From positions 1 through 64,000 of the forward strand of contig JBNGIO010006231.1 of the NCBI GenBank assembly GCA_049999805.1: 64,000 nucleotides of DNA. The letters run 5' to 3'. The notes beneath the pieces are model-generated. The model had not been told where the DNA came from, ran no database searches, and saw nothing but the letters and a program-made list of their open reading frames with translations. The stretch comes from Folioceros fuciformis. Taxonomy: Eukaryota. The position numbers were made by a program, and so were the translations under genes. Below, one piece after another: positions 1-19,421 of the stretch (the stretch's first letter is position 1; the number at the start of each line of letters is the position of its first letter).

Positions 1-2715
1 AATGGAGGAGAATTTACCTCCCAAGCATTTTTTGATTATTGTCGGGTTGAAGGCATAGCCCAGCAATTTTCCATTGCTTATACTCCTCAGCAAAATGGTG
101 TGGCCGAGAATAAAAATCTACGTTTACACGAAATCACTGGATGCTTATTATCTCAAGCTAAATTACCTAAGATTTATTGGGCTGAAGCCATTCTTACTGC
201 CACTTATCTTCTGAATAGATTACCTACCTCTGCTGTAAAGAACATGACTCCATATGAAGCTTTATTGGTCGCAAGCCCTCGATTGAGCACCTTCGTATTT
301 TTGGCTCCCCAGCTTATGCTTTTATTCCTCCTGCACAACGCAAGAAATTTGATCCAAAAGTTGTCCAATATAAGTTTATTGGCTATACTGAAGGCATCAA
401 AGGCTATAAATTATTCGACCCCTCTAATCATAAGCTTCTATATGCTCGTAGTGTGACCTTTAATGAGTCTGCCCTTCTCTTACCTTTAGTGGGAGGATCT
501 GTCGATTTTCCTTCACTCTCGGCTACTCCCACACCATTTCCTTCTGATAACGAAGATTCCTCTATTTTTCCTGATTATGATCCCCTTAATCACTTCCCTT
601 TTCCTTCTTCTCGTGTTGTCTCTGATTTGCAGGAGGAGGAGGAGTCAATCCTCCTACGACGACCTACTACACCAGATCCTGACTNNNNNNNNNNNNNNNN
701 NNNNNNNNNNNNNNNNNNNNNNNNNNNNNNNNNNNNNNNNNNNNNNNNNNNNNNNNNNNNNNNNNNNNNNNNNNNNNNNNNNNNATCCTGACTTGGAAGA
801 ACCTCAACATCTTCCTAAACCTGGTGACTTTGATTATGAGGATTTTGATCCTGCGTATGAAAATCATGTCGATCATGAGGATTCTCTACTAGTCCTTGAA
901 CCTATTCAGGGACCACATCCGCCATCTGTCGTAAATGACACTTCTAATGATGAGCAACCTGCACCCAGGTACAACTTACGTTCCCGTCCAAGCATCCCTG
1001 GACCTGCCAGTTGGTGAGAGCCTCCCCTTGGGTACCTTGCTATTGCCGATCACACTTCTTCGCTTGCATTACCTTACCTAGAAGCCATATACAAAGCCAC
1101 AGCTGACCCTCAAGAACCTGCTACTTTAAAACAAGCCTTTACCCTACCTGAAAAGGACTTATGGAAAGCAGCTGTAGATTCTGAATACAATTCATTAGTT
1201 AAGAACTCTACATGGGAGCTGGTCAGGCCACCTAAAGGAAGAAAAATTATTCCTAGCAAATGGGTATTCAAAATTAAGAGAAAAGGGGATGGATCAATTG
1301 AACACTACAAGGCAAGACTAGTAGCACGAGGATTCACCCAGATACCAGGTCTGGCCTATATACCATATGCCACATATGCCCCAGTAGCTAAGTTTGCTTC
1401 ATTACGTATGATTTTTGCTTTAACTGCGCAATATGATTTCCATCTCCACATGATGGATGTTAAGACAGCATATTTGTATGGCCGTCTCCAAGAGGAAATC
1501 TATATAAAACAACCCGAGGGTTATGAACTTAAAGGCAAAGAAGATTGTGTATGCAAACTTATTAAATGCATTTATGGCTTAAAACAATCAGGGAAAGAGT
1601 GGAATGTTACAATACATACTAAGCTGGTTAATAGAGGCTTTAAACGTAGTAAAGCCGATGCCAGCATGTATATATTAAAATCAGGAAATGATATTCTTTA
1701 TCTACTATTATATGTTGATGATTTATTCATGTCTTCATCATCAGCTTCTCTCCTAGCAGAAATAAAACTTTGGTTACGAGGTCATTTTGAAATGATTGAT
1801 CTCGGTGAGATGACATATGCTCTTGGAGTTAATATCATTCGTGATAGAATTAATAAAACCTTGAGTATTGTTCAAAAAAAATACATAATTGAAAGCTTGG
1901 CTAAGTTTGGACTTGAGGAAGCAAAGCCCGCTCCTACACCTTTTGCTAGCGGCATATGCCTTACCTCCTCTATGAGCCCAACCACTGATGCGGAAAAACA
2001 AGAGATGTCAGCAGTACCATATAGACATGCTGTTGGCACTTTAATATATTTGAGTAATTTTACAAGACCAGACATATCATTCGAAGTAAGCACCTGCTCA
2101 CAGTTTTTAGAAAATCCTGGACGTGAATACTGGATGTCAGTAAAACGCATCTTCAGGTACCTCAAAGGCACAATGAATACAGGACTCATGTATAGGCATA
2201 CAATTGGTATAGAAAAACTTACTTTGACAGCTTATGCTGATGCTGATTATGCTGGAGATTATGACACTAGGAGGTCAGTCTCGGGTTATGTACTAGTTTT
2301 AGGCAATGCACCTATTTCCTAGTCAAGTAGAAAACAACCTACCATCGCTCTCTCAAGTACTGAGTCAGAATATAGAGTCCTGACATCAACAGCCAAAGAA
2401 ATTGTTTGGAGTAGGTTAGTTTTGAATGAATTAGATCATCCGCAAAATGAACCAACTACATTATTTAGTGATAGTCAAGGAGCCATAGCTTTAGCACATA
2501 ATCCTGTTTTTCATTCTAGGACTAAACACATAGCAGTGGAATATCATTACATTAGAGAAGTTTTGGAAGACAAAACAATAGATATTAAGTATATTTCAAC
2601 TCATGAAAATCCAGCTGACATATTAACCAAATCCCTTGGACGGGATTTACATAACAAACACATGAGAAGTTTGGGCATTTTAGATATTAAATCCAAACCA
2701 CCTTTATTACCATAG
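1..2715 (+). mobile_element. Degenerate Ty1/copia pol (integrase-RT-RNase H), 5'-truncated by the window edge
   Basis: Integrase motifs TPQQNGVAE and WAEAILTATYLLNRLP; RT motifs MDVKTAYLYG, IYGLKQS and LYVDD; RNase H motifs SRTKHI and ADILTK; copia domain order. Frameshifts and stops (e.g. TAG at 2320-2322). No 3' LTR seen. Confidence 0.95.
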
Positions 2716-2945
2716 TAAGTACATTATTGTCAAGGGCTGATATAATTTAACTTCTTTATCCTAGCCCTATATTTGGTCCTTAAATCTCAATGTCTTCTTC
2801 TACCCTTAACTCTTCATCATAGTAGATGTCATTTTCTAGATGTAAGGACCAAATAGAACCTGTTTCCAAAAGAAACTTTTAGAATACATGTAGGGGTAGA
2901 AGGATGAATGGCCTCATAGAAGATATGTAGAATCAAGAGCATAAA

Positions 2946-3163
2946 TGCTCTGATACCATGATGAGAATCATTTCATGCTCTAAGATATGCTTACATTACT
3001 TATGTTGCTTGGAGCAAATGTTTTTATAGTACAAACGGTTATTGGTTGTTATAACTAATATAACCGAAATAACAAATAACTACTTGTGTAACCTCCTAGG
3101 AAACTACTTCTAGCCCTAGAATTAAATACTTATTTAATTCTAGGTATTTATATTGCCCTAACG
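2946..3163 (-). mobile_element. tRNA-Met primer-binding site plus adjacent probable LTR remnant of a further LTR element
   Basis: Minus strand reads CA-TGGTATCAGAGCA at 2960-2946, the canonical tRNAiMet PBS directly after an LTR-like CA end. The outer LTR boundary is approximate. Confidence 0.6.
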
Positions 3164-3239
3164 AATAGTGCAAAAAAAGTATCTATTTTATCAAGATGAA
3201 GGCATTTAAATGTGTTGGGTTGAGATGAAAATTGGGAAG

Positions 3240-6200
3240 TGGTTGGCCAGGCTATTATGGTGTAGGTTGGACAGGTAGTGCTGTTCCCATAGGGATGTCA
3301 TCGTCGCCATCTACAGGATCTGCAGGAAGATTAGATCCTCCCACTTCAATTGAGCCTTGCATGTCCTCTAGGAAGGTGATGTCCCGTGAGTGAGTCACTT
3401 TGTGAGTTCATGGGTACATGATTTTGAATCCCTTGACGCCAATGGTGAAGCCAATGAAGATGTGTTTACGTGGGTGATCCTGTAGCTTGGTTCTTGTGGC
3501 TTTAGGTATGTGTGCGAACACGGGAGAGCCAAAGACCTTGAGGTTTGAGAGGTTAGGCTTGTGCCCCGTCCATACTTCATAAGGAGTCTCTTGTGGCAAG
3601 GCAATTGTGACGAATTTGTTGAAGGGGTAAACTGAAGAGGCCATGGCTTCTAGCTAGTATGTCTTTGGCAAGTTGGCATGGATCAACATGGCCAATCCAT
3701 ACTCTTGCATTGTCCTCTTCATCCTTTTGGATACCCCGTTTTGTTGAAATATGTGGGGTGTACTTACTTGCTTATTGATGCCGCATGATTTGCAGAAAAT
3801 CACTTGAAGCATATTCTCCTCCTCCATCTAAACGGATTGTGAGGAGCTTCTCTCTTGTTCGCTTCTTAGCCCACACTATGTGTTCTTGGAAACAAGTAAG
3901 AACTTGAGATTTGTGCTTCAATAAGTAGAGGACAATGAATCTGCTCATATTGTCGATAACCAATATGAAATACAGCTATTTGTGAACAAATCTCTGGAAC
4001 TGTCCTCAGATGTCGGAGTGTACTAACTCCAAGTGTTTTATGGATCTGATGGTTGATTTAGGAAAGGGGGCACGATGACTCTTCCCGAGTGAGCATGCCC
4101 GGAGATGCCAAACTCCTCCACATTAGTGTGATGCCTTTGGCTGCACCTATTGAGAGCATTTGCTCCATTCTTTGTATCCCCATATGGCCAAGTCTTGCCT
4201 CTCATAAGTAGGATTGATTGTGCTTGGTTGGAGTAGATAGTGATCGAGCAGAGTTGTGACTTCTATCCATGTTGAGGTGATACTGGTTATCATTCGTGAG
4301 ATCTGCAGTGGCAATAAGCTCTCCTTGAGGCGTCTCCACGACGCAATGGCCTTGTCCGAAGCATACATAGCAGCTAGACTCACTAATTTTTTGGACTGAA
4401 AATAGATTTTTAGTTAGTTCTAGAACATGCAGTACGTTTGAAATTTGAAGTGTGCTTCAAATTTCAAACAGTTTGAGCTTGAAGTCTACTAATCCTTGTC
4501 CTTCTATTGCGTGCCTTGTGTTGTCACCCAGGTTGACGAAGTGAGGGGGCTTAAAAGGTGTAAAGTCTTTGAAGTACTTTCAGTGTGGGGTCATATGCTG
4601 TGACGCCCCTAAGTCTATGTACCAGGAATGTTGTCCTTGAGCAATTAGGCATGAACTGACTAGATCTGATGGTGGTGAGTCTGGCTTAGTGTTTTGTAGG
4701 CATAGGAATGTCTTTCACTGTCTCTTCTTGGTTAAACCTAATTGACCTAATGCTTCTTCTCTATCTCTCCTGTGATTATTGTCTGCCATACGTCTTCGGC
4801 ACTCTTCATATGTGTGCCCTAGAATCTTGTAGTAGCCGAATATCTTTTTCCAACTTGGGTTGAAGTTGTCGTGTCCTCTAGGGTGAAGCCTCTACCCCTA
4901 TGTGTTTGCTGTCGTTTGCAGGTGAACCTGTTGCGGCCTCAAGCTCTTCCTCTATCTATGAAGTAGGCAGCACTAGAGGATTCCCCGCCAAAGAAGGAAG
5001 CGAATACCTTCCTTCTTACTTCTTCTGTTAGCATAGCACTATTTACTTTATTTACTATAAGTGACATTGCACCTTGTAGGGATTGGACGATGAAGATCCA
5101 TGATTTGGGTAGAGTTGATGGTAATATTGTTGCTGTTAGATCTTCAGTCATAGTGAAGCCACAAGACTGGAACTTGGCGGTTCAGCTCCTAAACAACATG
5201 GTATGTACATCTACCTAGTCAATTTTTGACATTCTTAAAGTGAAATAATTCTTGATAGTGTAAACTGTGTGCATGATATCGGTGGGAGCATATATGTCAT
5301 GGAGTTGTTGCCAAGCTTTCGCGGCTATCTTGATGCCTTCCAGCTGTTGCACATTTTCAGATCTTATGCCTTGCATGATAACATTATTGGCTTGCTGGTT
5401 TTTATCATCCCACTCTTCCTTTTGAGTGTCTGTGGCATTAGCACCTAATGGGCGTGGTGTAGGAATTGATGGAGAGCCATTTCCTACCACAAATTCATGA
5501 AGTTTCCTCTCCTTGAGGATATTGGTGATTTTGAATTTCCATTGGGGAAATTTTGTTGCTGCCCATGCATCTAATCTATCTTCCTTGGATAGTGAGATGT
5601 TGGAGGTCATTTTGCGCTGTTGTTTGTGTCTAATTTGTGTGTCTGTGGGCACGTGCTAGCATGCGTGGCTACTTTGCTGTTAGCTTATATCTTGAAGATA
5701 CAGTTTCTAAAGGAGGCAAATTGTCTCCAAGTGCATGGTGAGTAGAATCCTGACTATTTGAGGTTTGTTTCTGACTTTGGCATTTTGAAGTTGGCTAATC
5801 TTGTGAATTACTGACGTTTCCAGTGCTTCAATTTCAGGTTATGGAGGATTCTTGAACAAGTTGTTCCTTCTGGATATGGTATCTAAATGGGCATGGATTC
5901 TTTCCGAAGCTAGTTATTGCAGTAGGGGATGACCACATCAAAGGATGTGGTGTATTGATTAATCATTGTAGGTGAATAGGAAGGAGACCTGAATATATGA
6001 CCAATCGCATTCATTAGGCTCTACATATCAGTAGTTCATGTCCTACGAGGAGCAATATGCATGAGACTCTAGATCAGGTATAGACTAGAAGGTCTTCGTT
6101 TGCTTCCTTTGAGTTACTACTCTTTAATGGAATCTTGCGAAATTCGAGGTTATGTGCAACTCGGTGTGCTCTTCTAAGCATGTGCTCTCTCTTCGAGAAC

Positions 6201-6580
6201 TGGCATGATGGTTGGGTTTATTTCTCATAATTAAGAGGACGGGGAAGCATTTATGTTTTGCTCTGATGCCATGACATAGTATAGTGTGTCACTGAATAGG
6301 TAGTTGTGCAAGAGAGAATCATAGATTGATGAATGAGAAGACCATGTTAAGTTGATCGAGTGTTGTACAAGAGAGAATTATAGATTGATCGTCGCGAGAA
6401 TCATATATTGATGGTATGAGAAGTAGATGTTAAGTTCGTATGGTGAAGCGGTGCCTTGGGCTAAGCGCTTCATGACGGTTCGTAAAAATGGCTGAAACGT
6501 GCGCTGAATAATGCTAGATCCAGTACTGTTTCTACAGTGATGAGGTAAGCGTTAGTTTTAAAGCTGTTAGAGCTCTCACA
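3240..6580 (-). mobile_element. Degenerate Ty1/copia element (LTR/PBS, gag, protease, integrase; RT missing)
   Basis: PBS-like TGGCATCAGAGC at 6271-6260; gag KFPQWKFKITNILKERKL (5215-5652); protease WYIDLGASQHMT (~4590-4625); integrase LELVHSD, IRLDGGGEY and TPYEVWTGHKPNLSNLKVFG; many stops and frameshifts. Confidence 0.9.
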
Positions 6581-6843
6581 TGCCTTTCACCCTCCTGTGT
6601 CTTATAAAGTATTTTCTCTCGATAAAGGCTAGATCCATATATTTCTACCATGAGGTGCGCAGAATTGCTTTTTCAAGGAACGCAGGCCTGTTTCCGTAGG
6701 GAACGCAGATCTGCTGCCGTAAGGAACAGAGGCCTCCCTTCTGTTTCTTGGAACAATCCTTGCGCTTGCCTAACAACAGGCGACTAGAGTTGTCTAAGTG
6801 ATTCCTCATCAACGGCAATCTAGGTTGTACAGGCTAAGGTCTC

Positions 6844-8847
6844 ATGCATCCATTTCCACTTCGTCGGCTGGTAGTGGTGGTTGAAAGCACGGCTGCTTTG
6901 AGATATGAATGGTCGCGCCTCAATGACTATGTCGAGAAAATTGTTCGAGGTTTCTATGGTCAGGACGTGAATGGAACTAGAATGTCAGTTACCTCAGCAG
7001 ACACTGGTTTGGTTTTGTTCAACAGCCATAGTGCTTATAATGAAAGGTTGGTAAAGCTCCAGGGCTGGACCAGCAGTATGGATGTCTTCCTTCACTGGCT
7101 GCGTAACATCTGGTTCAGTGGGCGCAGGTTTGGAGAAGTGGCTATGGCCGAGGGGCTTGCAGAGGCTCTTCTCATGTGTCTTCAAGGGCAAAATGTCGCA
7201 AACGTGACTGGATCGGACCAGAAGCACGTCCTCCTGATAGCTACATCTGCTCCCTGCAGCACACCAACGCCGGTTGTCACCCCGCCTATTAATTTAGATG
7301 GCAACTCCAATGCCTCGGAGCCAGGGATTCGCCCACGGCGCCTTGCACATTCACAGGATGTGGCCAAGTGGTTCCCTCAATGCCACGTTTCCTTGTCTGT
7401 CATCTGCCCGAGAAGACATCCCCAGTTGCGCTCCATTTTCGACCTGGCCCAGCGGAATGCAAGCTCAGCTGACCCAGAAGCGTTCATTCCCAAACAGTAT
7501 CCCCACGACACAGTTCTTCTATCCGATGGTTTCTGGGAGGCCCGTGCTGCTTTGGGCATGAATGGGAACATCTCCTCTGTGCCTCGAGGCTGGAAAGCTG
7601 AACGTCATGACATTCCGATTACGTCAGGGCAAACGTCAAGTGTGACTTCACGACGCATGGCCAGCGTTCCACGGCGCCAAGCTAGAGATCACATTTCCTC
7701 AAGACCGCCACCTGTATGGGTTAAAAAGACTACGGCGACGACTGGAACAGGTGAACCTCAACTCAGCACTACTTCCTCTTCAACCAAAGCAGTACACAAT
7801 GACTTGAGCTCTCACTCAAACCTTATGGTCCACTATCAGGCGGACGATAATGATTCCCAGAGTCGGGATGGAAAGTTCGATAGAGCTACAACTTCCCTAC
7901 CGCCTGAGGGAACTGGGGAAGACTTTTTCCCTGGACTTCAAATGGGACAGGCGTTTATGCGAATGGGACTTGACGCAAGTCAGGGTCAAGTGGGCCTGAA
8001 TACTCTGAAGGTAGACATGCTGGGACAGGGATGTTTTGCAACTGAGTTGCATCCTTATGCAATGGAGCCATCAAACTTGATTATGACCCGGGCTGAGCTT
8101 GCTGCTGTCAGTGCGGCGAACAGTCAGCTGCCTGCAGTACTTAGCCAGCTGAGGGGTCTGTATACTGCACCGTTTGGACAACAAAATCCATGGTTCGCAT
8201 GGTATTTGACATCAGGAAGTAATGTTCTGGACAGAGCGGCTACGCAAATTGGAGGCGTCGGTGCAAACAGATTCTCAGGAATTATGGGTACTCTCTTTAA
8301 TATACCAGAGCCTACTCAACGCTTGAAACCATCTTCCGTCACACGAGCTTCACACCAGAGTCTTCAACAACACACATTCGGCCCCCCTCAGCGTACAATT
8401 GGCCTGCCCTCGGTGAATCCACAGCGACAGGTTCCACAGTCTTCTCAGGCACCTGGAGGAAAGTATGCAAGGTTGTGGGACGGTGTGTTAGCAGCTGACC
8501 GTCACGGACAGACTGTGGTTATTTGCAAGTTAGAGTGTTATAGACCGAGTTTGTCACCAGAAACACTTGCTGCAGATTGGCCTTCCACATTTCGCATAAT
8601 GAGGGTCATTGATCAGGACCTCATGAGCAGCGTAGAGTTGGAGGGAAAAGAAGAAGTTTTGGCTTTCAGGGCACTGAATCACCATCCATTCCTCTTTCAG
8701 CTGGCAGAAAAGAAATTGCGTGCTGTGATTGAACTGCCAAGCCAGACAATACTGCTGGCAAGTATGCCTAACGAAGGAAGAATGGTCGGTGTGCTATTTC
8801 CAAGCCACAATGTCATCTTAATGCCAACCAATGCAAATCCTCAGTAG
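6844..8847 (+). CDS. MED25: Mediator subunit 25 (PFT1)-like paralog, intronless, diverged (667 aa)
   Basis: vWF-A motifs LVVVVESTAAL and AMAEGLAEAL; ACID-domain YARLWDG...ETLAADWP...LAEKKLRAVIELPSQT; colinear with the 12744-14909 copy; ORF uninterrupted. Confidence 0.85.
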   Translation: MHPFPLRRLVVVVESTAALRYEWSRLNDYVEKIVRGFYGQDVNGTRMSVTSADTGLVLFNSHSAYNERLVKLQGWTSSMDVFLHWLRNIWFSGRRFGEVAMAEGLAEALLMCLQGQNVANVTGSDQKHVLLIATSAPCSTPTPVVTPPINLDGNSNASEPGIRPRRLAHSQDVAKWFPQCHVSLSVICPRRHPQLRSIFDLAQRNASSADPEAFIPKQYPHDTVLLSDGFWEARAALGMNGNISSVPRGWKAERHDIPITSGQTSSVTSRRMASVPRRQARDHISSRPPPVWVKKTTATTGTGEPQLSTTSSSTKAVHNDLSSHSNLMVHYQADDNDSQSRDGKFDRATTSLPPEGTGEDFFPGLQMGQAFMRMGLDASQGQVGLNTLKVDMLGQGCFATELHPYAMEPSNLIMTRAELAAVSAANSQLPAVLSQLRGLYTAPFGQQNPWFAWYLTSGSNVLDRAATQIGGVGANRFSGIMGTLFNIPEPTQRLKPSSVTRASHQSLQQHTFGPPQRTIGLPSVNPQRQVPQSSQAPGGKYARLWDGVLAADRHGQTVVICKLECYRPSLSPETLAADWPSTFRIMRVIDQDLMSSVELEGKEEVLAFRALNHHPFLFQLAEKKLRAVIELPSQTILLASMPNEGRMVGVLFPSHNVILMPTNANPQ

Positions 8848-9019
8848 CGCCCTCAGGAACATACGCCGTTTCAGTTTAAACTAATGTTATCGGCATTTCA
8901 GTGCTGAAACCGTTAGTAGCTATTGGAAGCTGGTAGAAACATGATTCAAGGACAAGATCTGGGAAGAGGTTCACAACATTTTTCTGTCATGCACGGGACG
9001 AGAGCGGAAGGCAACTTGC

Positions 9020-9283
9020 AAAAAATGTCTTGGTGAGGACAAAGCTGGCCAGGTAGTGTATCCACAGAACGCTTTGTCCTGGGAAACCTGTTAGATTATG
9101 ACATGATACTGAGAACCTCATTGTAGTAGTCATGTATTGAGGTCATCACAAGAACAGAGTCGCTGTGTCAAAGGCAAACCTTCCCTCCCAGTATCCTTGT
9201 GTTATCTTCAACATCCCTCGGTACATGTCTGCCTGCAAGTAAGGGACTCCAATTACATCAACTGCTCGCAACTTCGTACGCTC
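9020..9283 (-). pseudogene. Duplicated, decayed Haspin 3' exons (a last-exon remnant also lies at ~6712-6762)
   Basis: Homologous to 15044-15309. The ADMYRGMLKITQGYWEGR exon is retained, the next exon has a 1-nt insertion (acaaagcgtt vs acaaacgtt), and its donor changed GT>GC. Confidence 0.85.
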
Positions 9284-9399
9284 ATTTGCGAAAGCTATAC
9301 ACCTGCCGATCCCAACAACCAGTCCCTTCCTTGCTGGGACACTGCCATCCTGAATCCACGATTTCAACTTCAGAGCCTCAGAAGACTAAGTGCCGGTGA

Positions 9400-9960
9400 C
9401 CTGGGCCCAATCACCTGGAAAATCGTCTTTATGTCCTTTATACGACACCCTCCTGTGCGGGGAAGCCTTCCTCCGATGTAGTGAACCGAGTACACCCGCC
9501 ACAAACTGATCCCAGACCTTCCAGGCCCGGACTCAATTTGCATGTCTGACTACTCCGGGTATCTTCCAGCACAGCGAGAAACGTACGCCTTCTCCACCTG
9601 CGTTCCCCGTGAGCGGAAAGGTTGAGAATCTTCAACTTCGCAGAAATAGCAGGGGACTAAGGGGCTGCCAGCAACATAGCAATGAGCAGACCGAGCACCC
9701 TGCACCTTGTCCCGTCCCTTACCATGGACTTGACAGTGGCAAACACATGCTCAGAGTACATCCCGGAAGACTTGTTTAACACAATAAATCCCTCATCCTC
9801 ATAGACAATTTGCTGCCTGCTGACTCCCTCGTTGCACTGCATGGCGGCTTCTGCCACAATCGCCCGCTCCACCTCCACCGATCTAGCATATTCGGAGCTG
9901 AATGGGGTAAGGGGAACCGGAAGGTCCAGAGCTTCAACAGAATCCTGCTGAAGCAAGGGA
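9400..9960 (-). pseudogene. RluA-family RNA pseudouridine synthase fragment
   Basis: PVPLTP...IVYEDEGFIVLNKSSGMYSE, then VEKAYVSRCAGRYPE*...SGPGRSGISLWRVY...IKDIKTIFQV. In-frame stop; the catalytic HRLD motif and the C-terminus are not found. Confidence 0.75.
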
Positions 9961-11790
9961 GATGCATCAAGCTACGCATTGGATGAACACTGCGGAGCAA
10001 CACGTGGAGGAACGGCGAGGGCTGCCAAGCTAGTGCCACAACCGTTCGTTGAGGCCACAACCCATGCTATGAAGCTGCCTTTCCCACGACAAAGCCAGCG
10101 CGACCTTGGCTGGACAACAAACCCTAAAAATATTTCAATTTATATTTTGGATATTTATTTAACAGTGTGATAATTTAACTTATAAAAATGAAGATCTTAA
10201 GGGATCAGAACCAAGCGTCTTTTGCCTACTAATGTTTCAATCCTCTGCACACCCCTACGGAATATCGATATGGATACACCACTGTTTGTATATGGTCTCA
10301 TATTTTGAAGCTAATGATAGTATGGGTAGTGGGTGGCTATCAAGGCGTCCCAATCTAGCCATCACTCGACATACACGACTTTTTTTTTCTTTCTCACTAG
10401 TTGCACAACAGCATGGGAAAGCTAAGGACGACCAGCAAAGAAGATGTGGAGAAGTGGAGGCCCCCAATGGAGCTGGACGAGCAAAGGGTTAGAATGAAGT
10501 TGGACAAGCCAAGGGTTAGGACGGGAAAGGCAGTGGAGGCTGCCAATGGGGTTGGACGAGCAAAGGGGTAGGAAGCTCATTTTGACTGCTTGTATGTGTG
10601 TGAGAGAAAACATTTTGTTAGGTTGAAGGTTGTGATTGTGCTGTAGGCAGTTGTTTCCTTGCACTAGAACTTATGGTCATGTGACCTTGGAAATAAATGA
10701 ATTATGTGAATTGAATACCTTTGGTTTACGTAATCGCATCCAAATCCCACACAAACTGGGGTTCAATTGATCAAATCTAGAGAGTTTGTGGGGGCTTTTA
10801 GGTACCCCATAACACCCAAAGAGGGGTGTAGTAATTGCAAGGGAACGTTGCATGTGCAGAAGGTGGGGATTGAAGATTTGCAAAATCAGTGGGCTATGGC
10901 TAGGCTTCATATTAGCAATAACATTGCAATGTAGTTCAGATCCTCCAGCATGGAATGTGAGATGAGAATGTAGGCAATTGCATGAGCTTCTTGTAGACTT
11001 AAGAGGAAAGCTAGCATGGTTGTTTGTGTAGTATGGTGTGAGTTGTAGCCACTGCAACACCCAAATCCCTGTCTAGCTTGATCAAAAAGAGTGCAATAGA
11101 GGAGCTTGATGGTGGGCAAATTGAACGGCTCTTTTAATAGATTCACTTCTCCTCAAGGAACCTATGGAATCTCGAGGAGCACCTAACCAAGCACATGTGC
11201 TATATAAGCCAATCAGCCTTGCGTACCCATTCCTAGATTGTGGCCCCAAGTATGAAATTGAAGAGAACGCATCCTTTCCTGCCTTTCCTGCAAGTTACAT
11301 GTGTGCCCTTGCTTCGCCCATCACTCGAAATTCTCAGAAAAAGGGTGAGAAATTGGAAACCAACACCTAACGGCCTCCCATTACCCTAAATCCTCGGAGA
11401 AGGGTATGCAATTGCAAATGAACACTTGAAGGCCTCTCATGCCCCATTCCTCCACCACACTTGAAGTATTACTAGCTAAGGTAGATACCAAGGATCCTCA
11501 TGCACACCCTCACCCTAAACCATTTATCCATACATGGATAAGAAGAATACCCGAGCACAAGATGTAGCGTGAAGGGTGGAACAATGGCAATATGAAGTTC
11601 AAGGGTTTGAAGTCGAAGGCATGATGTGGGTAGATGAAGCTTGTGCTGGAGAAGATAGCAAGGTATTGATTAGAAAATATTATAAACTAAGAAGAAACAA
11701 AAGTTATGGACCAAAGAAGATTCTTCAATGTTCTTAATTGGTCCATTGAAGTGCGAATGCCATAAGAAAAAAAGTGGTATTATATGGAAG

Positions 11791-12090
11791 GTCATAATGT
11801 GACGTGGAGCCCTAAAATCCATAGAATATTGACGTAAAATATAACATACGGTTGAAAAAGAAAACCCTAATTGTGGATTGTATGTGCCTATTGATATTCC
11901 ATACGGTCCACTAAAGAGGCAATGACACAAGAAAAACAGTCCGTACTATATGCAAGCTCATAATGTGACATGGAGCCCTAAAATCCATATGTACGCAAAA
12001 GATGCCGAAGAATATTCACGTAAAAATATACAGTTGAAAAAAGAAAAGGCTAATCGTAGACAGTATGTTCGTATTGGTATTCCACATACC
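11791..12090. repeat. Imperfect direct repeat, ~165 nt period, two copies
   Basis: tcataatgtgac(g/a)tggagccctaaaatccata...gttgaaaaa...tatt(g)atattcca occurs at ~11792 and ~11958. Confidence 0.7.
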
Positions 12091-12421
12091 TGCCTAACTT
12101 TTTGAAAGGATTATGCTTTTGTGACTCTCATTCATTATATATAATAAAATAATTTACGAAGATTGTTCTTGGAAGCTTTAAAAATATATATAATTGAAAA
12201 CTAGTTTTAAATACTATTTGAAAAATATAAGGCCAAGACAAAGAAATTTTGAAATTTTTTTCCACCTCCAATGACGGAGACCGGGGTTGGTGAAAAATGA
12301 CACCCAATACGTCAAATGTTGAATGTGACGTTCCGTCATCAAGGTGTCAACTCCACACGCCACAAGAAGGACTCAGGGAGTCTCACTGAAGGAAGATAAT
12401 TCGCACAAACAGGCGCAGACA

Positions 12422-12430
12422 AAACCCTAA
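12422..12430 (+). promoter_or_regulatory. Telo-box (AAACCCTAA), candidate MED25 promoter element
   Basis: Exact motif ~315 nt upstream of the MED25 ATG; function is inferred only. Confidence 0.35.
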
Positions 12431-12530
12431 GGCTCAACATCAATCGTACAGATAGCTACGACGCGCACTGAACTTCGCCAATTACTTTGGATGACACCAG
12501 TGTCGAAGTATATGACATTGCGTTGTTTCT

Positions 12531-15500
12531 CTATGACTCCCACATATCCTGGAAAAAGTCATCCGATACTGCTGCTCTGGCGGAATCATAGAGCAGGACT
12601 CGACTGCGGAAGGAACGTAGGTCTCGCTTCTGTTTCGTGGAAGAATTCTGCATGAGCCACAACAGGTAATTAGACGTGTCCAATTGAGTCCTCATCGACG
12701 GCAATCTAGGTTGCACGGGCTAAATTGTCGTGCATCTTGCGCGATGTCACAACAGATGACATTTCAACATCGTCAGCTGGTAGTGGTGGTTGAAAGCACA
12801 GCTGCTTTGGGATATCACTGGTCTCATCTACTCAGGGAGTATGTCGAGAAAATTATTCGAGCTTTCTATGGTCAGGATGTCAATGGGACCAAATTGTCAG
12901 TTACCTCAGGAGAAACTGGCTTGGTTTTGTTCAACAGCCATCATGCTAATCATGGAGGGTTGGTACAGCACGTGGGCTGGACCAGCATTATGGATGTCTT
13001 CCTTCACTGGCTCCATAACATCCAATTCACTGGGGGAGGGTTTGGGGAAGTGGCCATGGCCGAGGGGCTAGCAGAGGCTCTCGTCATGTGCATTCCAGGG
13101 CAAAGTGTGGCAAACGTAACTGGATCAGACAGGCAGAAGCATGTCCTCCTGATAGCTACATCTGCTCCCTGCAGCATACCCAAGCCTGTTGTCACCCCGC
13201 CTATTAGTTTCAATAGCGACTCTAATGCCTCGGAAGCAGAGACACGCCAATGGCGCCTTGCAGATTCAGAGGATGTGGCCAAGTGGTTCCCTCAATGCTA
13301 CGTCTCCTTGTCGGTCATCTGTCCAAGAAGACTTCCCCAGTTGCGCTCGGTTTACAACCTGGCTAAGCGGAACTCAAGGTCAACTGACCCAGAAGTGCTT
13401 ATTCCCAAGCAGTATCCCTACCACACAGTTCTTCTTTCGGATGGTTTCTGGGAGGCCCGTGCTGTTTTGGGCATCAATGGGAACAACTCCTCTGTGCCTC
13501 CAGTCTCAAAAGCTGAACTTCATGACATTCCGATCACGTCAGGGCAAACGGCAACTGGGATTCAAGGACATTCGGTCAGCGTTCCAACTGGGAAAGCCAA
13601 GATTGAGATTTCCTCAGGACTGCCACCTGTCTTGGTTAATAATGCTAAGGTGACCACTGGAACAGGTGTACCTGGGATCAGCACTGGTATGGCCCCTTCC
13701 ACCAATGCAGTACAGGATGCCTTGAACCCTGTCTCAAATGTTGTGGTGAAGCAGGAAGATGTGACGAATACCTCTCTCGTCTCCAACACAAACGTGCTGG
13801 CAACCGGTTATCATGCAGGCACTCAGGTATCACGAGGAGCCAACAATGGTACTTTGCAGGTTCCGGATGGAAGCTTTCAGGGAGTTGCAAATATCCTATC
13901 GTCTCAGGGAACTGGGGTAAACTCTTTCCCTGGAGTTACAATGGGACAGGCGTCTATGGGAATTGGACCTAATGCACTCGGAGGTCAAGTGGGCGTGAGT
14001 AGTCTGCACGTAGACATGGCGGGACAGGGAAATGTTGCAAATGGGTTGCACGCTAAAGTAATGCAGCCATCAAACTTAATAATGAGCCGGGCTGAGGTTG
14101 CTTCTGTCAGTATTCCGAACAGTCAGCTGGCTGGAGGATTGGGCCGTGTAGGGGGTCTAGGTACTGCACCTATGGGCCAACCCAATTCTCGGAGTGCAGG
14201 GGGTCTGACATCAGGAAGTAATCTTCCGAACAGAGCAGCAACTCAAGTTGGAGGAGTTGGTGCAAACAGATTGCCAGGAGTTACTGGTACTCTCTCTAAC
14301 ATAGCACAGCCTACTCAAAGCTTGCAACCATCTTCCATTACACAAACTTCACAGCAGACTCTTCAACAACAGACATTCCAAGCTCAGCATACACTTGGCC
14401 AGTCCCCTGCAAATCCACAGCAACAGGTTCCACAGTCTACTCAGGCATCTGGAGGCAGGTATGCAAAGTTGTGGGAGGGCCTATTAGCAGGTAACCGTCA
14501 AGGAAAGACTGTGGCTATTTGCAAGTTAGAGTGTTTTAGACCGAGTCCGTCACCAGACACACTTGCTGCAGACTGGCCTCCCACAATTCACATAATGAGG
14601 CTCATTGATCAGGAACTCATGAACAGTAAAGAGTTTCAGGGAAAGGCAGAGGGTTTGGTTTTCAGGCCGCTGACTCCACATCCATTTCTCCAGCAGCTGG
14701 CGGAAAAGAAATTGTGTGCTGTGATTCAACTGCCAAGCCAGACATTACTGCTGGCAAGTACTTCTATGGAAAGAAGAATGATGGGTATGTTATTTCCAGG
14801 CGACATGGTTGTCTTCAAGCCAAACAATGCAAATCCTCAGCAGCCAGAAGTTATCAACCCAGCTGCCTCGGCAGCCGCAGGAACGTATGTGGCATCAAGT
14901 ATAAACTAATGTTATTGGTATCCCAGTATTTAAAACGTTAGTGGCTATTGGGAGCTGGTAGAAAATAATTTAAGGACAAGATCTGGGAAGCGGTTCCCAA
15001 CGTTTTTCTGCCATGGACGGGACGAGAGCGGAGGGCAACTTACAAAAGATTTCTTGTTCAGGACAATGCTGGCCAGGTAGTGGATCCACAGAACGTTTGT
15101 CTTGGAAAACCTGTTACATTTTTCCATGATACTCAGAACCTCATTGTAGTAGGCAGGTGTTGAGGGGTCACAAGAACAGAGTTACTGTGTCAAATGCAAA
15201 CCTTCCCTCCCAGTGTCCTTGTGTTATCTTCAACATCCCTCGGTACGTGTCTGCCTGCATGCAATTAAGGCACTCTAATTAAAGCAACTGCTCGCAACTC
15301 CGTACGCTCTTTTGAGAATGCTAGGGACCTGAATATCTCTTGGCGGTCCGTCGAAAATTGCAGGATCGGCGCCTAGATTGCAAAACAGAACTTGTCTTCC
15401 TGCGAGAAACGTCAACCCGATAAGAACGGGAGTTTCTTGTGGAGTGGCAGGAATCTGAAGAAATTTAGGCACCTGTATTCACTCGTGAAAGGGTGAAGTC

Positions 15501-18500
15501 AATTATTGATAACGACAATCCACACGTCCTAGTCCGTAGCGCATTTCCATCCAAACAATAGTCCTTTGCATGCTCTTCAGTTCTAGCTAGCACAAGGTTC
15601 CCCCTGCACGAACAGTGTGGCAACAAGTTGTACTCCCTTGGTCTGTTCAGTGAAGTATTGACAGCCCTGGACATGCCACTCCCAGGATACCAGCAAGCTT
15701 CAGGCGATAAAAACTGAAGGATTAGATGTATTACCAATGGAGATCCCGATGCTCAAATTCGCAAGCAGTTTCTGCAATAGCAAGCGAGAGAACAACCTGC
15801 GCCGAGGCTTAAAAGTTACAGAGCTGTGGACATGGCCCGCATCAGACTGGAAAAAGTGCGCAGTGAGCAATTAGCCCTTACCTGAACAAGCAGGCTTTTA
15901 ACTTCAGCGGAGTCTGCGAGAACGAAGCTTTCCAAATCCTTTCCCCCATCTGCCAGGATGAAAATGACATATCGCTAATTCCCGCCAAAAGTTAGAAATG
16001 CACTAGATGTACATCATCCGGAACAGTCATTAGAGACCCATCAAAGAAAAAGTCGCCATTGATAGTCAGATGAGCGAGGCTAACCTGTTGTTCTGGAAAA
16101 GACATCGGATGATCATTCTCTGATTTGTGTTCAGCATCCCACTCCTCCCATGCCCGGATGAGGTCTTCGTCATACTTTCCTCGACAATATTTGATCCTGA
16201 GAGCAGTAGTGGTGATCATTGCTTGCTATTATGATACACACCTCACCAGAAAGAGACAGCACCCACAGTTTTGCTTTCTCAGCCAAATATACGATTACTA
16301 CCCCTTAGTGGTGATGAAGTTCGTACAAAAGTTTGAACTGTTTGGCAGCTGCAACTTGTTCAAAGTGCTGGAGAGCAGCACCTCGTCATAGAGTTCAGCA
16401 GAAGTCTGCAAAAATGTGGTGAGCAACGTCTGCATTTGGCAAATTTCACCTTACAGGAATGGGCCAAAGCACTGAACAGATTGTGTGTACTTTTTGTAAT
16501 TCCCCGTTAACGCGAAAGTCTCCATCAACAGGAACAATCTTCAAAACAGTGTCCCCTTCTTTGAAAGCTTCTCCATAAGTTCCTTCTCCAATTTTGGTGA
16601 TCTTGCTCATATCACTACCACAGCAACAAAAATGCACAGCTGTTACTGATAGCGAGAGCCATCGGCCAGACAACTAGGTTTCACTCCCCATGACAGTGAG
16701 GTCGTTTGGGACATTACCAGTAAGCAGAGATGGCCTCCCTCTGGGTGGTTAGACGGGTTTGTCCACTTTCTCTGAGGAGCCCGTAGAAAACCGAAACTCT
16801 ATCATCATCCACGAGTGATATATTGCCATTCCCTTTGACTGTAATGTTCTCATTTGCTACGTCTTCCTCATCCTCCTCCAAAATTGCAGAGTACGGTTCA
16901 GCTCTGTCATGAAGTGAGAGGCGGTCCAGCGCCAAAACTCCGAGGCCTGATGCAGGAGTTCTTGCTCTTGCCACTTGATGTAGATGTTGAGATGGGCTTG
17001 TCGAAAATACTTTTCGAGTGGCAAGCTCCTGAAATGTTGACTCTTCAATTTCAGCAGTAAGCCCGAAAGGTGTTCTGGAATGGCTGAAGGATAACCCTTT
17101 CCGACCGACCAACTCCCCGCCTTCTAAGTCTTGAACAGAGGGGGGCCCCTGTTTGTCACTGGAATGATCGTGTGTAAGGTAAGCCGTCTTACAAACGTTA
17201 AGCAGGGTGGTCTGCCCCTGGACCGGAGATCCTGTTGGAGCCCTCAGACTAGAACATTTGTGTGAGCCGTTGTGCTCGCTCTCTTGCATGAGGGCCCCAC
17301 GATATTGGGCAAGGCACAACTCTGCTGTTGGAAACAAATCTGGTAGTTCAGGAGACGGTGCAGACAAACTAGCCGTCAATTTGTGGCCAATTCTTGACCC
17401 CTTGGATCGACAAGTGCTTGACCCTGTAACATCACCGTAAAGAGGTTCGACCAGAGAACAAGCAGCAGTGCCACAAGGCTCGGCTGCAGAAATTCTTTGT
17501 TCCTCCTCCGAATCAGTCACCCGGATGGACCGAGGGAACAGCTCCACAAGTGTTTGCACCTCTTTCTGACATGCTGTAAAGTCTTGAACATCACCCCAAT
17601 GTCTTCCATGAGGAGTTGTGAGCGCAGCAGCTAACATATGTCTGGTCCCTGAAAGAACATAGCTTGCGGGCGTTTGGTGAGAGATCTCCCCTAATGCATC
17701 TTCTGGAACTGCTTCAAGAGGAGCATGCCGAGCATGGAACGGCAACACGATGTCCACAGCTGCTGCATCCGAATTTTCATCTTTCCAGCCTGTGACGTGA
17801 ATGGGAGAGGGAACTGCCTCTTCCAGCTCGAAGGCATCGATCTCAGCGAACATGGCCCGCTGCTCTTGGACAAATTCAATGGGCGCCTCTGCCTTTTTCC
17901 TTCTTTGCATGTGCTGGATCACAACAGCCACCGACACCGCAACTAATTGCCAGTTCACACACAAACTACTGATAGGAATGGCAGAACAGTCTCTGATTTG
18001 CACGTACCGCTCCTCCGCAAGGGACGTCAGCTTTACCTCTCGCATTTCCTCGGTTTTCTGGGCATCCATCGTCCAGGGGATGCACAATGCTGCTCCTCCT
18101 TCGCCTGTCGCAAGCAGGAGATGCGAATCACAGCCAATCCAGCAACACTAGGAATCGCCACTTGCAGGGACGAGCAGGAAATCGGATAAGCGTGGAAGAA
18201 CTCGCCTGAGTGACAGGGACCGGTCCATCCAGCTCTGCCGATTTTGCTCCACCTTGCCAGCACCTCTCTGTGACCTGCCAGTGGTGTGCAAAGAATGGCT
18301 GATTCACAACTGAGAGGAGAATGCCTACAAGCCCCCAGCAGACCGCGATTTCGCATTTTCTGGCAAATGAGTATCAGACTGTACTTCTTGTGTTTGTGTC
18401 TGGAAACAGCTGGGAGCAATTCGCGCACATCATTCTTCAGTGTATCTTGTAAGAGCCGCCGTGGCCCAGCGTCCTTGTGGCGACGTGAATAGACCGCTGT

Positions 18501-18675
18501 GACATGTTTGCCAGTTGCGGAGATAACTTTGTCTGCAATCCAATCCTCCAATACATGAGAATTGAAATTGAGTCTTTGCGAGACGCGAAGAGAATGCGCA
18601 CGCAAGAGAGTGCCCTAGAAGCTCACACAGCCTACCGAACAATAGAGCATCGTTCCGGGATCTTGTGTCCTCCAT
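12531..18675 (-). CDS. HASPIN: Haspin kinase (histone H3-T3), multi-exon; start codon uncertain
   Basis: Exons encode EIDAFELEE, KIGEGTYGEAF, AWEEWD..ENDHP, ADGGKDLESF, EFEHRDLHW|GN, IIDFTLSR, DTYRGM, KTNVLWIHYL..KKSF (ends 15044), and the last exon NSSTKQKRDLRSFRSRVLLYDSARAAVSDDFF (12647-12531). GT-AG junctions checked for the 3' exons. Confidence 0.9.
12744..14909 (+). CDS. MED25: Mediator subunit 25 (PFT1), intronless, 721 aa, nested in the Haspin last intron
   Basis: QLVVVVESTAALG, FTGGGF..AMAEGLAEAL, FPQCYVSLSVICPRRLP; ACID domain YAKLWEG..LAADWP..QLAEKKLCAVIQLPSQTLLL..GMLFPGDMVVFKP. First ATG at 12744. Confidence 0.93.
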   Translation: MSQQMTFQHRQLVVVVESTAALGYHWSHLLREYVEKIIRAFYGQDVNGTKLSVTSGETGLVLFNSHHANHGGLVQHVGWTSIMDVFLHWLHNIQFTGGGFGEVAMAEGLAEALVMCIPGQSVANVTGSDRQKHVLLIATSAPCSIPKPVVTPPISFNSDSNASEAETRQWRLADSEDVAKWFPQCYVSLSVICPRRLPQLRSVYNLAKRNSRSTDPEVLIPKQYPYHTVLLSDGFWEARAVLGINGNNSSVPPVSKAELHDIPITSGQTATGIQGHSVSVPTGKAKIEISSGLPPVLVNNAKVTTGTGVPGISTGMAPSTNAVQDALNPVSNVVVKQEDVTNTSLVSNTNVLATGYHAGTQVSRGANNGTLQVPDGSFQGVANILSSQGTGVNSFPGVTMGQASMGIGPNALGGQVGVSSLHVDMAGQGNVANGLHAKVMQPSNLIMSRAEVASVSIPNSQLAGGLGRVGGLGTAPMGQPNSRSAGGLTSGSNLPNRAATQVGGVGANRLPGVTGTLSNIAQPTQSLQPSSITQTSQQTLQQQTFQAQHTLGQSPANPQQQVPQSTQASGGRYAKLWEGLLAGNRQGKTVAICKLECFRPSPSPDTLAADWPPTIHIMRLIDQELMNSKEFQGKAEGLVFRPLTPHPFLQQLAEKKLCAVIQLPSQTLLLASTSMERRMMGMLFPGDMVVFKPNNANPQQPEVINPAASAAAGTYVASSIN

Positions 18676-19421
18676 TGTCCTCCAGCCCCGAAAGGGGAGC
18701 TAGCTTCAACACCGCCCCCGACACCTCACAATTGGGAACAGCCGCATCCTTCCAAGGAATGGTCTTACGACGTGGGGCATACACGGTGTGTGAGAGTAGC
18801 GGAGTGCGACCAGTTCTGATCCGTCAATCCGCCTTGGGAAGGGCCATTTGAATTTTGTGTCTTGGCGGGACACTGTCAAGTGAGTGTCACATCGCGTCAC
18901 ACAGCCATTGCCTTGACCTGGTTTCCCTCCTCAACTCATGTGGGACGATTTACCCAACCGTCACGTATCAAACACTAATCCCGTAGTAGGGAACATTGGA
19001 CTAATTTAACCGCATAAAGGTTGTTAAAGGAATTCGGGTTCCCTAATCTCAAAACTAAGTGGACCCAAGGGTGGATTAATATTGGTATGATTTACCTTTG
19101 TACTAAGATAATCTTAATATCGTTTAAGAAATTTCATCTTCAAATTATTCAAATCGAAAACTACATACTTATTAAACCTAACCTAAAACTTCGGGGACCA
19201 CAGACACGTGTGCCTCCCTCCTCTGCAATCCCCTCAAAACCCTACTAGTAAATCGGTACATTATTTCCTGACACATCAAACACAATGGTAATCAAACGAC
19301 TGTCGGTAATCTTAAAACAATGGTAACATCATGCACCTTGTACATATCTACTATGCTTTAAATAGGCGAACTTTGCAAGTTGTGAAGTCTTAGGCCACCA
19401 ATGAGCTCATAGTCTGCAACT

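What the first reader, a model, noticed from the sequence alone, without database searches (positions are those of the whole stretch)
12531..15110. Intronless MED25 nested antisense inside the last intron of Haspin
Seen in sequence: the penultimate Haspin exon ends ..KKSF at 15044 with a GTAAGT donor. The matching C-terminal exon (NSSTKQKRDLRSF..VSDDFF..*) begins at 12647 after a TGCAG acceptor in the same phase. This defines a 2396-nt intron (12648-15043), whereas neighbouring introns are mostly ~80-110 nt. It is almost completely filled by the 2166-nt MED25 ORF on the other strand, with 96 nt and 134 nt to spare. Established: angiosperm MED25/PFT1 is intron-rich. Inference: a MED25 retrocopy inserted into this intron and became a functional nested gene, physically coupling a Mediator subunit to a mitotic kinase.
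Basis: partly seen in the sequence, partly recalled or inferred. Interest (0 to 1): 0.85.

Follow-up and report, generated by a model that had tools for sequence, protein, structure and literature searches.

The report
Intronless MED25 gene inside Haspin intron
A single-exon gene for the Mediator subunit MED25 sits backwards inside the oversized last intron of the Haspin kinase gene of a non-flowering land plant, and the unit was later copied 5.9 kb away; this is a good but ordinary example of a retrogene-like nested gene.

Summary
A 721-codon MED25 ORF (12744-14909, +) lies in a 2396-nt GT-AG, phase-0 gap (12648-15043) between two Haspin exons on the minus strand. The far exon (12647-12531) matches the extreme C-terminus of three angiosperm Haspins. 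The read-through peptide matches none of the three.

Contigs of one public run carry seven GT-AG Haspin splice junctions (introns 73-131 nt). They also cover MED25 colinearly from 12383 to 15245. So MED25 is transcribed without introns, there is no misassembly, and the covered stretch overlaps the flanking Haspin exons. The 15044^12647 junction itself was not seen, and contigs cannot decide that.

MED25 loci from metagenomes are mostly split at shared positions, so intronlessness is derived. Retroposition is the likeliest origin, but no poly(A) remnant, target-site duplication or parent gene could be shown.

Copy B keeps a 667-codon ORF although dN/dS against copy A is about 1.

Verdict: a new member of a known kind (nested intronless gene), of modest interest.

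The parts
12744..14909 (+). MED25 copy A coding region, single exon, 721 aa plus stop
   Evidence: ORF. Pfam Med25_VWA E 7.5e-38. Full-length alignment with plant MED25s. Covered without gaps by transcript-derived contigs.
12383..15245 (+). Stretch covered colinearly by two overlapping contigs of run X1 (12383-14304 and 14275-15245). Read as the MED25-A mRNA with its UTRs. The left 150-260 nt may instead be the Haspin last exon and 3'UTR, because the contigs are unstranded.
   Evidence: table 8: 0 other letters, 0 gaps. The contig is unspliced through the Haspin intron 15111-15201.
12648..15043 (-). Last Haspin intron, 2396 nt, GTAAGT...TGCAG, phase 0. It hosts the MED25 coding region.
   Evidence: Splice signals. 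Homology of both flanking exons. The junction was not seen in RNA.
12531..12647 (-). Last Haspin coding exon: 38 codons plus the TAG stop at 12533-12531
   Evidence: Matches the C-terminal 34 aa of 3 of 3 angiosperm Haspins, E 1e-7 to 3e-6. Colinear in the alignment.
15044..15110 (-). Penultimate Haspin exon (67 nt), ending ..KKSF
   Evidence: tblastn 59-65% identity to Haspins. Frame analysis.
15111..15201 (-). Inferred 91-nt Haspin intron (GT..AG)
   Evidence: Required by frame and homology. No spliced contig covers it.
15202..15254 (-). Haspin exon (53 nt)
   Evidence: Its upstream junction 15255-15328 was seen in a spliced contig. Homology.
15329..18100 (-). Remaining Haspin coding exons: 15329-15399, 15473-15603, 15735-15796, 15882-15974, 16085-16196, 16302-16405, 16491-16614, 16718-18100. 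First in-frame ATG of the large exon at 18069.
   Evidence: Six further GT-AG junctions in spliced contigs. Intron 15975-16084 inferred from homology. Alignment.
14945..15043 (-). Read-through extension, used if the 15043 donor is skipped: 32 codons and a stop at 14947-14945
   Evidence: No similarity to the three Haspins tested.
6718..9305 (+). Duplicate module B, about 80% identical to 12607-15331, same orientation
   Evidence: blastn: 80.3% over 1145 nt and 80.0% over 1477 nt. Borders.
6844..8847 (+). MED25 copy B ORF, 667 aa plus stop
   Evidence: ORF. Pfam Med25_VWA E 1.3e-30. 63% protein identity to copy A.
9020..9238 (-). Decayed copies of Haspin exons 15202-15254 and 15044-15110 inside module B
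   Evidence: tblastn. Conserved Haspin residues are lost in B.
6721..6760 (-). Decayed copy of the first ~43 nt of the Haspin last exon at the left border of module B

Best explanation
The Haspin (histone H3 Thr3 kinase) gene runs on the minus strand in 11 coding exons. Its last intron is about 20-30 times longer than its neighbours because it contains, on the opposite strand, a complete single-exon MED25 gene.

Shown: the geometry; the homology of both flanking exons to Haspin; transcription of MED25 colinear with the genome; and MED25 coverage running across the flanking Haspin exons.

Inferred: MED25-A descends from an intron-rich MED25 gene through an RNA intermediate (retroposition) that landed in a pre-existing short Haspin intron. 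It gained its own promoter near the Haspin 3' end and stayed a working Mediator subunit gene. Haspin must still splice 15044 to 12647 across it to make its conserved C-terminal tail.

Later, a 2.7-kb piece was copied 5.9 kb downstream. It holds MED25, 43 nt of the last Haspin exon, two small Haspin exons and their introns. In copy B the Haspin fragments decayed. MED25-B kept an open frame but evolves much faster than A at conserved sites.
For: Geometry and splice signals.

MED25 identity: Pfam E 7.5e-38; 96% coverage with Selaginella MED25; ACID-region tblastn identity 64-71% to four plant MED25s.

Last-exon homology: 3 of 3 Haspins, E 1e-7 to 3e-6, at their extreme C-termini. The read-through peptide has no hit. 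The model is 761 aa and 52-55% identical over ~336 aa.

RNA: run X1 gives 8 joints, 7 of them GT-AG on the minus strand, so it holds spliced RNA. Its contigs cover 12383-14304 and 14275-15245 with 0 differences and 0 gaps. They give no cover at 11500-12252. This rules out misassembly and shows MED25 is intronless and transcribed.

Derived intronlessness: 29 metagenome loci of 4 kb or more have the MED25 match broken at recurring positions (about aa 39/61, 102-117, 183/184, 205-208, 629, 657/658, 686/687). None of these breaks exists here.

Constraint on A: at columns >=80% conserved in 11 other MED25s, only A keeps the residue 27 times and only B 5 times; at invariant columns the counts are 13 and 0. 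Indels between A and B are 6 of 6 multiples of three inside the shared coding part, against 2 of 8 outside it.

Constraint on the Haspin exons of A: the B copies have lost residues that A shares with angiosperms.

Duplication. The borders fall at 12605-12607 and 15331-15333, and identity drops to 0.38-0.42 beyond them.
Against: The 15044^12647 junction was not seen in the only run available. Contigs drop rare variants, so this is uninformative.

The retrocopy hallmarks are absent. There is no A-rich tract (best 12 A in 20 nt) and no flanking direct repeat of 8 nt or more around MED25-A. No parent gene could be sought because no genome is held.

Pairwise dN/dS of A against B is 0.95 (bootstrap 0.75-1.16). 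Differences are flat over codon positions (0.21/0.17/0.19). So constraint since the duplication is weak overall, and A itself has lost 5-14 conserved residues. MED25-A also lacks the Q-rich tail and terminal motif present in all 11 compared MED25s.

Contigs are unstranded. Assigning 12383-12743 and 14910-15245 to the MED25 mRNA rather than to Haspin RNA is therefore an inference.
Confidence: 0.65

Rival explanations
1. Haspin normally ends before MED25. The donor at 15043 is skipped or transcription stops in the intron, giving a 755-aa kinase that ends at the stop 14947-14945. Under this view the 12647 exon is a relic or only a minor isoform, and the two genes are simply convergent and overlapping.
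For: No contig joins 15044 to 12647, and a contig runs unspliced through 15043. Neither point is decisive. In the mouse H13/Mcts2 pair, transcription of a nested retrogene forces the host to use an upstream poly(A) site (PMC5408686, passages read; PMC13309782, abstract only).
Against: The 12647 exon keeps an open frame, correct phase, a consensus acceptor and 38-50% identity to angiosperm C-termini. Its partial duplicate in module B has lost those conserved residues at similar nucleotide divergence. That argues for continued selection on the A exon. The read-through tail has no homology to the three Haspins tested.
Confidence: 0.12
2. MED25 is not a retrocopy that was inserted. It is the ancestral MED25 locus, which lost all its introns in place (for example by gene conversion with its own cDNA). 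It became enclosed when a rearrangement moved or recruited the Haspin last exon beyond it.
For: No poly(A) tract or target-site duplication. No second, intron-bearing MED25 in the 64-kb window. Intronless MED25 ORFs also occur in other, unnamed genomic contigs (L005-L007, L019), so intron loss in this family recurs.
Against: It needs two independent rare events instead of one. All the recurrent intron positions are missing at once, which is the signature of an RNA intermediate in either case. None of the 77 MED25 loci fetched has Haspin beside it, so the adjacency is not ancestral. The Haspin exons on both sides are in correct order, strand and phase.
Confidence: 0.18
3. Assembly artefact: MED25 was joined into the Haspin locus by misassembly, for example a collapse between the two 80%-identical copies.
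For: Two similar copies lie 5.9 kb apart. There is a run of N near 690-790 in the window.
Against: Transcript-derived contigs match copy A with 0 differences. They bridge from the Haspin last exon into MED25 (12383-14304) and from MED25 into Haspin exons 15044-15110 and 15202-15245. Copy B independently shows the same adjacency.
Confidence: 0.02

Closest known systems
[quoted passage not shown] 2001, Gene 267:49, not read)
   Same: An intronless, retrogene-like gene lies wholly inside an intron of an unrelated host gene, and the Haspin family is involved.
   Different: The roles are reversed. Here Haspin is the multi-exon host and MED25 the intronless guest. This is a plant lineage, and the guest's covered transcript stretch overlaps host exons.
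Nested retrogenes such as mouse Mcts2 in H13, or KTI12 in TXNDC12 (PMC5408686, passages read; PMC13309782 and PMC11694760, abstracts only)
   Same: A single-exon gene sits in a host intron with its own promoter. The arrangement is common (about 20% of animal retrogenes, 44% in human, per PMC5408686). Nested transcription can alter host 3'-end choice.
   Different: No evidence here for imprinting, methylation or a switch of host poly(A) site. The guest is antisense and lies in the last intron. The retrocopy hallmarks and the parent gene are not demonstrated.
Canonical plant MED25/PFT1 genes (multi-exon)
   Same: N-terminal Med25 VWA domain and conserved ACID-type C-terminal domain, colinear over the whole protein.
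   Different: No introns, whereas other loci have recurrent intron positions. It lacks the Q-rich tail and the conserved terminal motif. No relative in a 1.84-billion-representative library matches over most of its length at more than about 41% identity; higher figures come from hits whose best stretch covers under half of the protein.
Orphan retrogenes and retrogene replacement (PMC3548309, PMC5803294; abstracts only)
   Same: This would apply if the multi-exon parent has been lost and only the intronless copies remain.
   Different: Not testable here, because no genome is held.

Membership tests
MED25 (Mediator subunit 25) | N-terminal Med25 von Willebrand A domain (PF11265) | tested here: met
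   Copy A: E 7.5e-38, 130.8 bits, cut-off 21. Copy B: E 1.3e-30.
MED25 (Mediator subunit 25) | Conserved activator-interacting (ACID-type) C-terminal domain of plant MED25 | tested here: met
   tblastn 64-71% identity over ~120 aa to four plant MED25s. Many invariant columns between residues 573 and 693.
MED25 (Mediator subunit 25) | Q-rich C-terminal region with conserved terminal motif, as in the other plant MED25s | tested here: not met
   Absent from copies A and B, present in all 11 compared sequences. This is a truncation relative to the family, not a reason to exclude membership.
MED25 (Mediator subunit 25) | Incorporation into the Mediator complex | not testable with these tools
   Needs biochemistry.
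Haspin kinase | Haspin-type kinase domain (PF12330) | tested here: inconclusive
   Single exons are too short: the best Pfam hit is E 0.074, below the cut-off. The spliced model was compared only locally. It is 52-55% identical over ~336 aa to three proteins that carry PF12330.
Haspin kinase | Conserved C-terminal tail after the ..KKSF-type segment | tested here: met
   Exon 12647-12534 against 3 of 3 Haspin C-termini, E 1e-7 to 3e-6.
Retrogene (retroposed gene copy) | Lacks all introns of the parental gene type | tested here: met
   Colinear RNA contigs. Recurrent intron positions in 29 other loci are absent here.
Retrogene (retroposed gene copy) | Poly(A) tract remnant at the 3' end | tested here: not met
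   The richest 20-nt window downstream has 12 A. The insertion predates a duplication with dS 0.23, so erosion is expected.
Retrogene (retroposed gene copy) | Flanking target-site duplication | tested here: not met
   No shared word of 8 nt or more between the flanks of copy A.
Retrogene (retroposed gene copy) | Intron-bearing parent elsewhere in the genome | not testable with these tools
   No genome held. No third copy in the window.
Host/nested gene pair | Guest coding region wholly inside one host intron | tested here: met
   12744-14909 lies inside 12648-15043.
Host/nested gene pair | Host transcript spliced across the guest | tested here: inconclusive
   No 15044^12647 joint in the contigs of X1. 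Supported only by homology and splice signals.
Host/nested gene pair | Guest transcript confined to the intron | tested here: not met
   Contigs continuous with MED25 reach 12383 and 15245, across the Haspin exons. The pair is therefore nested at coding level and overlapping antisense at transcript level, with the caveat that the contigs are unstranded.

The most novel reading that the evidence does not exclude
In this lineage MED25 survives only as retrogenes: an orphan retrogene replaced the multi-exon parent. The working copy is an antisense guest whose mRNA overlaps the last three Haspin coding exons. Transcription of a general co-activator gene would then directly set, by transcriptional interference or sense-antisense pairing, whether the mitotic kinase Haspin is made full-length or truncated at 14947-14945 without its conserved C-terminal tail. 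The fast-evolving but still open copy B would be a neofunctionalised MED25 paralogue.
Probability: 0.1. Interest if true: 0.55.

Novelty: new member of a known kind. Interest (0 to 1): 0.3.

Why it matters
It gives a clean, dated example in an early-diverging land-plant lineage of a core transcription-machinery gene that exists as a single-exon, nested, antisense gene. The later duplicate acts as a built-in control: it carries host-exon fragments whose decay shows which parts remain under selection.

If the multi-exon parent is gone, this would be a case of retrogene replacement of a Mediator subunit. The antisense overlap with Haspin's last exons makes a testable model for host/guest transcriptional interference in plants. 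By itself it does not change what is known about nested genes or about either protein.

Tried and rejected
- Whole genome: none is held for this window. The search for a parent gene and for copy number was therefore impossible.

- Sequencing runs: no RNA holder is listed on record. X1 is labelled only as a guess, and its spliced contigs show that it holds RNA. X2 and X3 laid nothing. No joint 15044^12647, and no joint for the inferred introns 15111-15201 and 15975-16084, appeared in X1's contigs. Contigs drop rare variants, so this counts neither way. Contig depths (34-52 for the MED25 contigs, 2-5 for the Haspin contigs) cannot rank the genes.

- Pfam on single Haspin exons: nothing above the cut-off.

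- Poly(A) and target-site-duplication scan around copy A: negative. Around copy B only a 6-nt word (CTGCCG) sits at both borders, and about 1.4 such matches are my own estimate of chance.

- Direct-repeat scan of 1-13000 found only the A/B pair, with no LTR pair bounding copy B.

- Relatives: the protein searches found no relative matching over most of MED25's length above about 41% identity. None of the 77 metagenome MED25 loci carries Haspin, either with whole Haspin proteins at E<=1e-3 or with the window's own exon peptides, whose best E was 1.1.

- Earlier findings of this scan: nothing relevant.

- Literature: no paper holds both MED25 and Haspin in a nested-gene context. None of the 12 papers listed (of 1,025 holding at least two terms) mentions MED25 in the search for MED25 with intronless, retrogene, retrocopy, hornwort or Anthoceros. 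Supplementary files were not consulted.

The best named hits are Marchantia and Selaginella.
Full report
**1. What is in the sequence**

On the plus strand, 12744-14909 is an uninterrupted 721-codon ORF. Pfam places its first 232 residues in Med25_VWA (E 7.5e-38, 130.8 bits, cut-off 21). It aligns over 96% of its length with Selaginella MED25 at 38% identity, and over its VWA part with Marchantia at 55%. In a 13-sequence alignment both the VWA and the C-terminal ACID-type domain are conserved. The Q-rich tail and terminal motif of the other 11 proteins are missing.

On the minus strand the flanking ORF pieces are Haspin. The exon ending ..KKSF stops at 15044 and is followed by GTAAGT. A ..TGCAG acceptor precedes 12647. 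The two exons join in phase 0, and the gap 12648-15043 is 2396 nt, leaving 96 and 134 nt beside the MED25 ORF. All numbers in the finding are correct.

**2. Is the distant exon real?**

I fetched three angiosperm Haspins (P0019, P0020, P0021; all carry PF12330) using one Haspin exon as the query. The 38-aa peptide of 12647-12534 hits the extreme C-terminus of 3 of 3 of them: subject residues 593-626 of 633, 578-611 of 615 and 513-546 of 546. E-values are 1e-7 to 3e-6 and identity is 38-50%. The 32-aa read-through peptide (15043-14948) has no hit at E<=10.

A model of 11 coding exons gives an open 761-aa protein. It is 52-55% identical to the three Haspins over the last ~336 aligned residues and colinear to the last residue. 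The penultimate exon is therefore only 15044-15110.

**3. RNA evidence**

One public run (X1; its type is on record only as a guess) holds 64% of the sampled words of 12300-18300. Laid on 11500-19000, its contigs show 8 joints. Seven of them resolve to GT-AG introns on the minus strand: 74, 73, 131, 85, 105, 85 and 103 nt. The run therefore contains spliced Haspin RNA, and the short neighbouring introns are confirmed. Nothing covers 11500-12252.

Two overlapping contigs, 12383-14304 and 14275-15245, match the window with 0 differences and 0 gaps. This shows three things:

- MED25-A is transcribed and has no intron anywhere in that span.
- The physical linkage of MED25 to Haspin exons on both sides is not an assembly artefact.
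- The contig continuous with the MED25 3' part runs unspliced through the Haspin intron 15111-15201 and across exons 15044-15110 and 15202-15245.

From the last point I read the stretch as the MED25 3'UTR lying antisense to Haspin exons. The contigs are unstranded, so this is an inference. The part 12383-12743 could be the MED25 5'UTR, the Haspin last exon with its 3'UTR, or both.

No joint 15044^12647 was reported. Contigs drop rare variants, so this says nothing either way. Contig depths cannot be used to rank the genes.

**4.

A self-comparison shows that 12607-13747 matches 6718-7829 (80.3%) and 13862-15331 matches 7863-9305 (80.0%), in the same orientation. The copied unit contains:

- the first ~43 nt of the Haspin last exon,
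- all of MED25,
- the rest of the big intron,
- Haspin exons 15044-15110 and 15202-15254, and
- introns 15111-15201 and 15255-15328.

Identity collapses to 0.38-0.42 just outside both borders. The right border lies within 3-5 nt of an exon boundary (15329). Because copy B carries Haspin pieces in the same arrangement, the nested arrangement is older than the duplication, and copy A, which sits inside the intact Haspin gene, is the source.

In copy B the Haspin fragments have lost residues that copy A shares with angiosperms. This serves as an internal control showing that the A exons, including the distant last exon, remain under selection.

Copy B lies in a transposon-rich stretch: copia pol at 1-2715 and copia gag at 5215-5655. 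No LTR pair or convincing target-site duplication bounds it, and there is no poly(A) tract at its end. I therefore favour a DNA-level segmental duplication. A retrocopy of a long MED25-A transcript is not excluded.

**5. State of the two MED25 copies**

Copy B is an open 667-codon frame with a Med25_VWA hit (E 1.3e-30), 63% identical to copy A (421 of 666 aligned residues).

The pairwise measures look neutral. dN is 0.219, dS is 0.230 and omega is 0.95 (bootstrap 0.75-1.16). By region, omega is 0.54 in the VWA domain, 1.34 in the low-complexity middle and 0.99 in the C-terminal part. Differences are flat over codon positions (0.21/0.17/0.19), and the noncoding flanks differ by 14-27%.

Two observations argue against plain pseudogene decay:

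- A neutral simulation that puts only half of the divergence on one lineage gives a mean of 6.6 stop codons and an open frame in 0.12% of 5000 trials.
- The 6 indels inside the shared coding part are all multiples of three, against 2 of 8 outside it.

Polarising with 11 other MED25s, at columns >=80% conserved only A keeps the residue 27 times and only B 5 times (both keep it 129 times, neither 34 times). At invariant columns the counts are 13 and 0. So copy A is the better-conserved, probably canonical gene. Copy B is a fast-evolving paralogue that has been kept translatable for most of its history. I cannot explain why omega is near 1 while the frame stays open.

**6. Is intronlessness derived, and is it retroposition?**

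A scan of metagenome contigs with the MED25 alignment returned 77 loci. Among loci of 4 kb or more, 29 show the MED25 match broken into several pieces. The break points recur at about aa 39/61, 102-117, 183/184, 205-208, 629, 657/658 and 686/687. These are conserved intron positions, and none of them interrupts the gene here.

Colinear matches also exist. L005-L007 are one 643-aa ORF (P0009) on contigs of up to 41.9 kb, and L019 covers the VWA part. L001-L004 are ~3-kb contigs that may be transcripts. So intronless MED25 copies have arisen elsewhere too.

Loss of every intron at once, together with residence in an unrelated gene's intron, is best explained by retroposition. However, no poly(A) remnant or target-site duplication survives. 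The parent could not be sought because no genome is held, and there is no third copy in the window.

None of the 77 loci has Haspin next to MED25, so the adjacency is not a general plant feature. A library of 1.84 billion representatives holds 274 relatives at E<=0.001. Its best hit, and the only kind matching over most of the length, is 41% identical over residues 8-705; figures up to 49% for other long proteins come from hits whose best stretch covers under half of the query. The arrangement could therefore not be dated by comparison.

**7. Comparison with what is known**

Genes nested in introns, often single-exon retrogenes, are common. About 20% of annotated animal retrogenes and 44% of human ones lie in introns of other genes. 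Nested transcription can force premature host polyadenylation, as in Mcts2/H13 and KTI12/TXNDC12 (PMC5408686, passages read; PMC13309782 and PMC11694760, abstracts only).

[quoted passage not shown] Here the roles are reversed. Plant Haspin is a histone H3 threonine kinase (PMC3113928, abstract only).

I found no paper linking MED25 and Haspin in a nested context. None of the 12 papers listed in the search for MED25 with intronless, retrogene, retrocopy, hornwort or Anthoceros mentions MED25.

**8. Verdict**

This is a new member of a known kind, a retrogene-like nested gene. It has two points of extra interest: the antisense overlap of the covered transcript stretch with the host's last exons, and the ancient duplicate that carries host-exon fragments. 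Interest is about 0.3.

Noticed in passing
window 6718-9305: Second intronless MED25 (ORF 6844-8847) with decayed Haspin exon fragments. Omega against copy A is about 1, yet the frame is open and all coding indels are in frame. This combination is unexplained.
   Followed up: yes
window 1-2715 (+) and 5215-5655 (-): Copia-type retrotransposon parts. A long ORF with integrase, RT and RNase H-like sequence is interrupted by a run of N at about 690-790, and there is a separate gag fragment (Pfam Retrotran_gag_2, E 8.6e-11).
   Followed up: partly
window 11740-11901 and 11905-12084: Two adjacent ~170-180-nt direct repeat units, 72% identical, in the AT-rich spacer just downstream of the Haspin 3' end.
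   Followed up: no
window 9400-11100 (-): Several minus-strand ORF pieces (for example 9657-9971) lie between the two MED25 copies and look like exons of another gene. Pfam gave no hit at E<=0.01. From memory, one piece resembles the start of RluA-type pseudouridine synthases; this was not tested.
   Followed up: no
window 14275-14304: The two MED25 contigs of run X1 break and overlap here, with different contig depths (34.1 and 51.6). No repeat or variant explains the break.
   Followed up: no
window 18100-18202: A spliced contig skips 101 nt upstream of the large Haspin exon, with ends reported as TC..AC (ambiguity of 7). It is probably a 5'UTR or first-exon intron of Haspin, but no GT-AG register was found within the shifts tried.
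   Followed up: partly
L005-L007 (match 6-693) and L019 (match 6-248): Intronless MED25 ORFs on genomic metagenome contigs of up to 41.9 kb, at 38% identity to the window's gene. These are independent single-exon MED25 copies in other, unnamed organisms. One sample (prefix Ga0099826) yields both an intronless locus and an intron-bearing one.
   Followed up: partly
P0018: A 76-aa ORF call on a 14.5-kb genomic contig of a relative is 88% identical to Haspin exon 16491-16613, yet no close MED25 relative exists in either protein library. This is a weak hint that the relative's Haspin locus lacks the nested MED25. The contig could not be fetched.
   Followed up: no
P0017: A Capsicum protein combines a reverse-transcriptase domain (PF00078) with Med25_VWA, and several fragmentary Capsicum MED25-like proteins appear. 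MED25 pieces seem to be associated with retroelements there.
   Followed up: no
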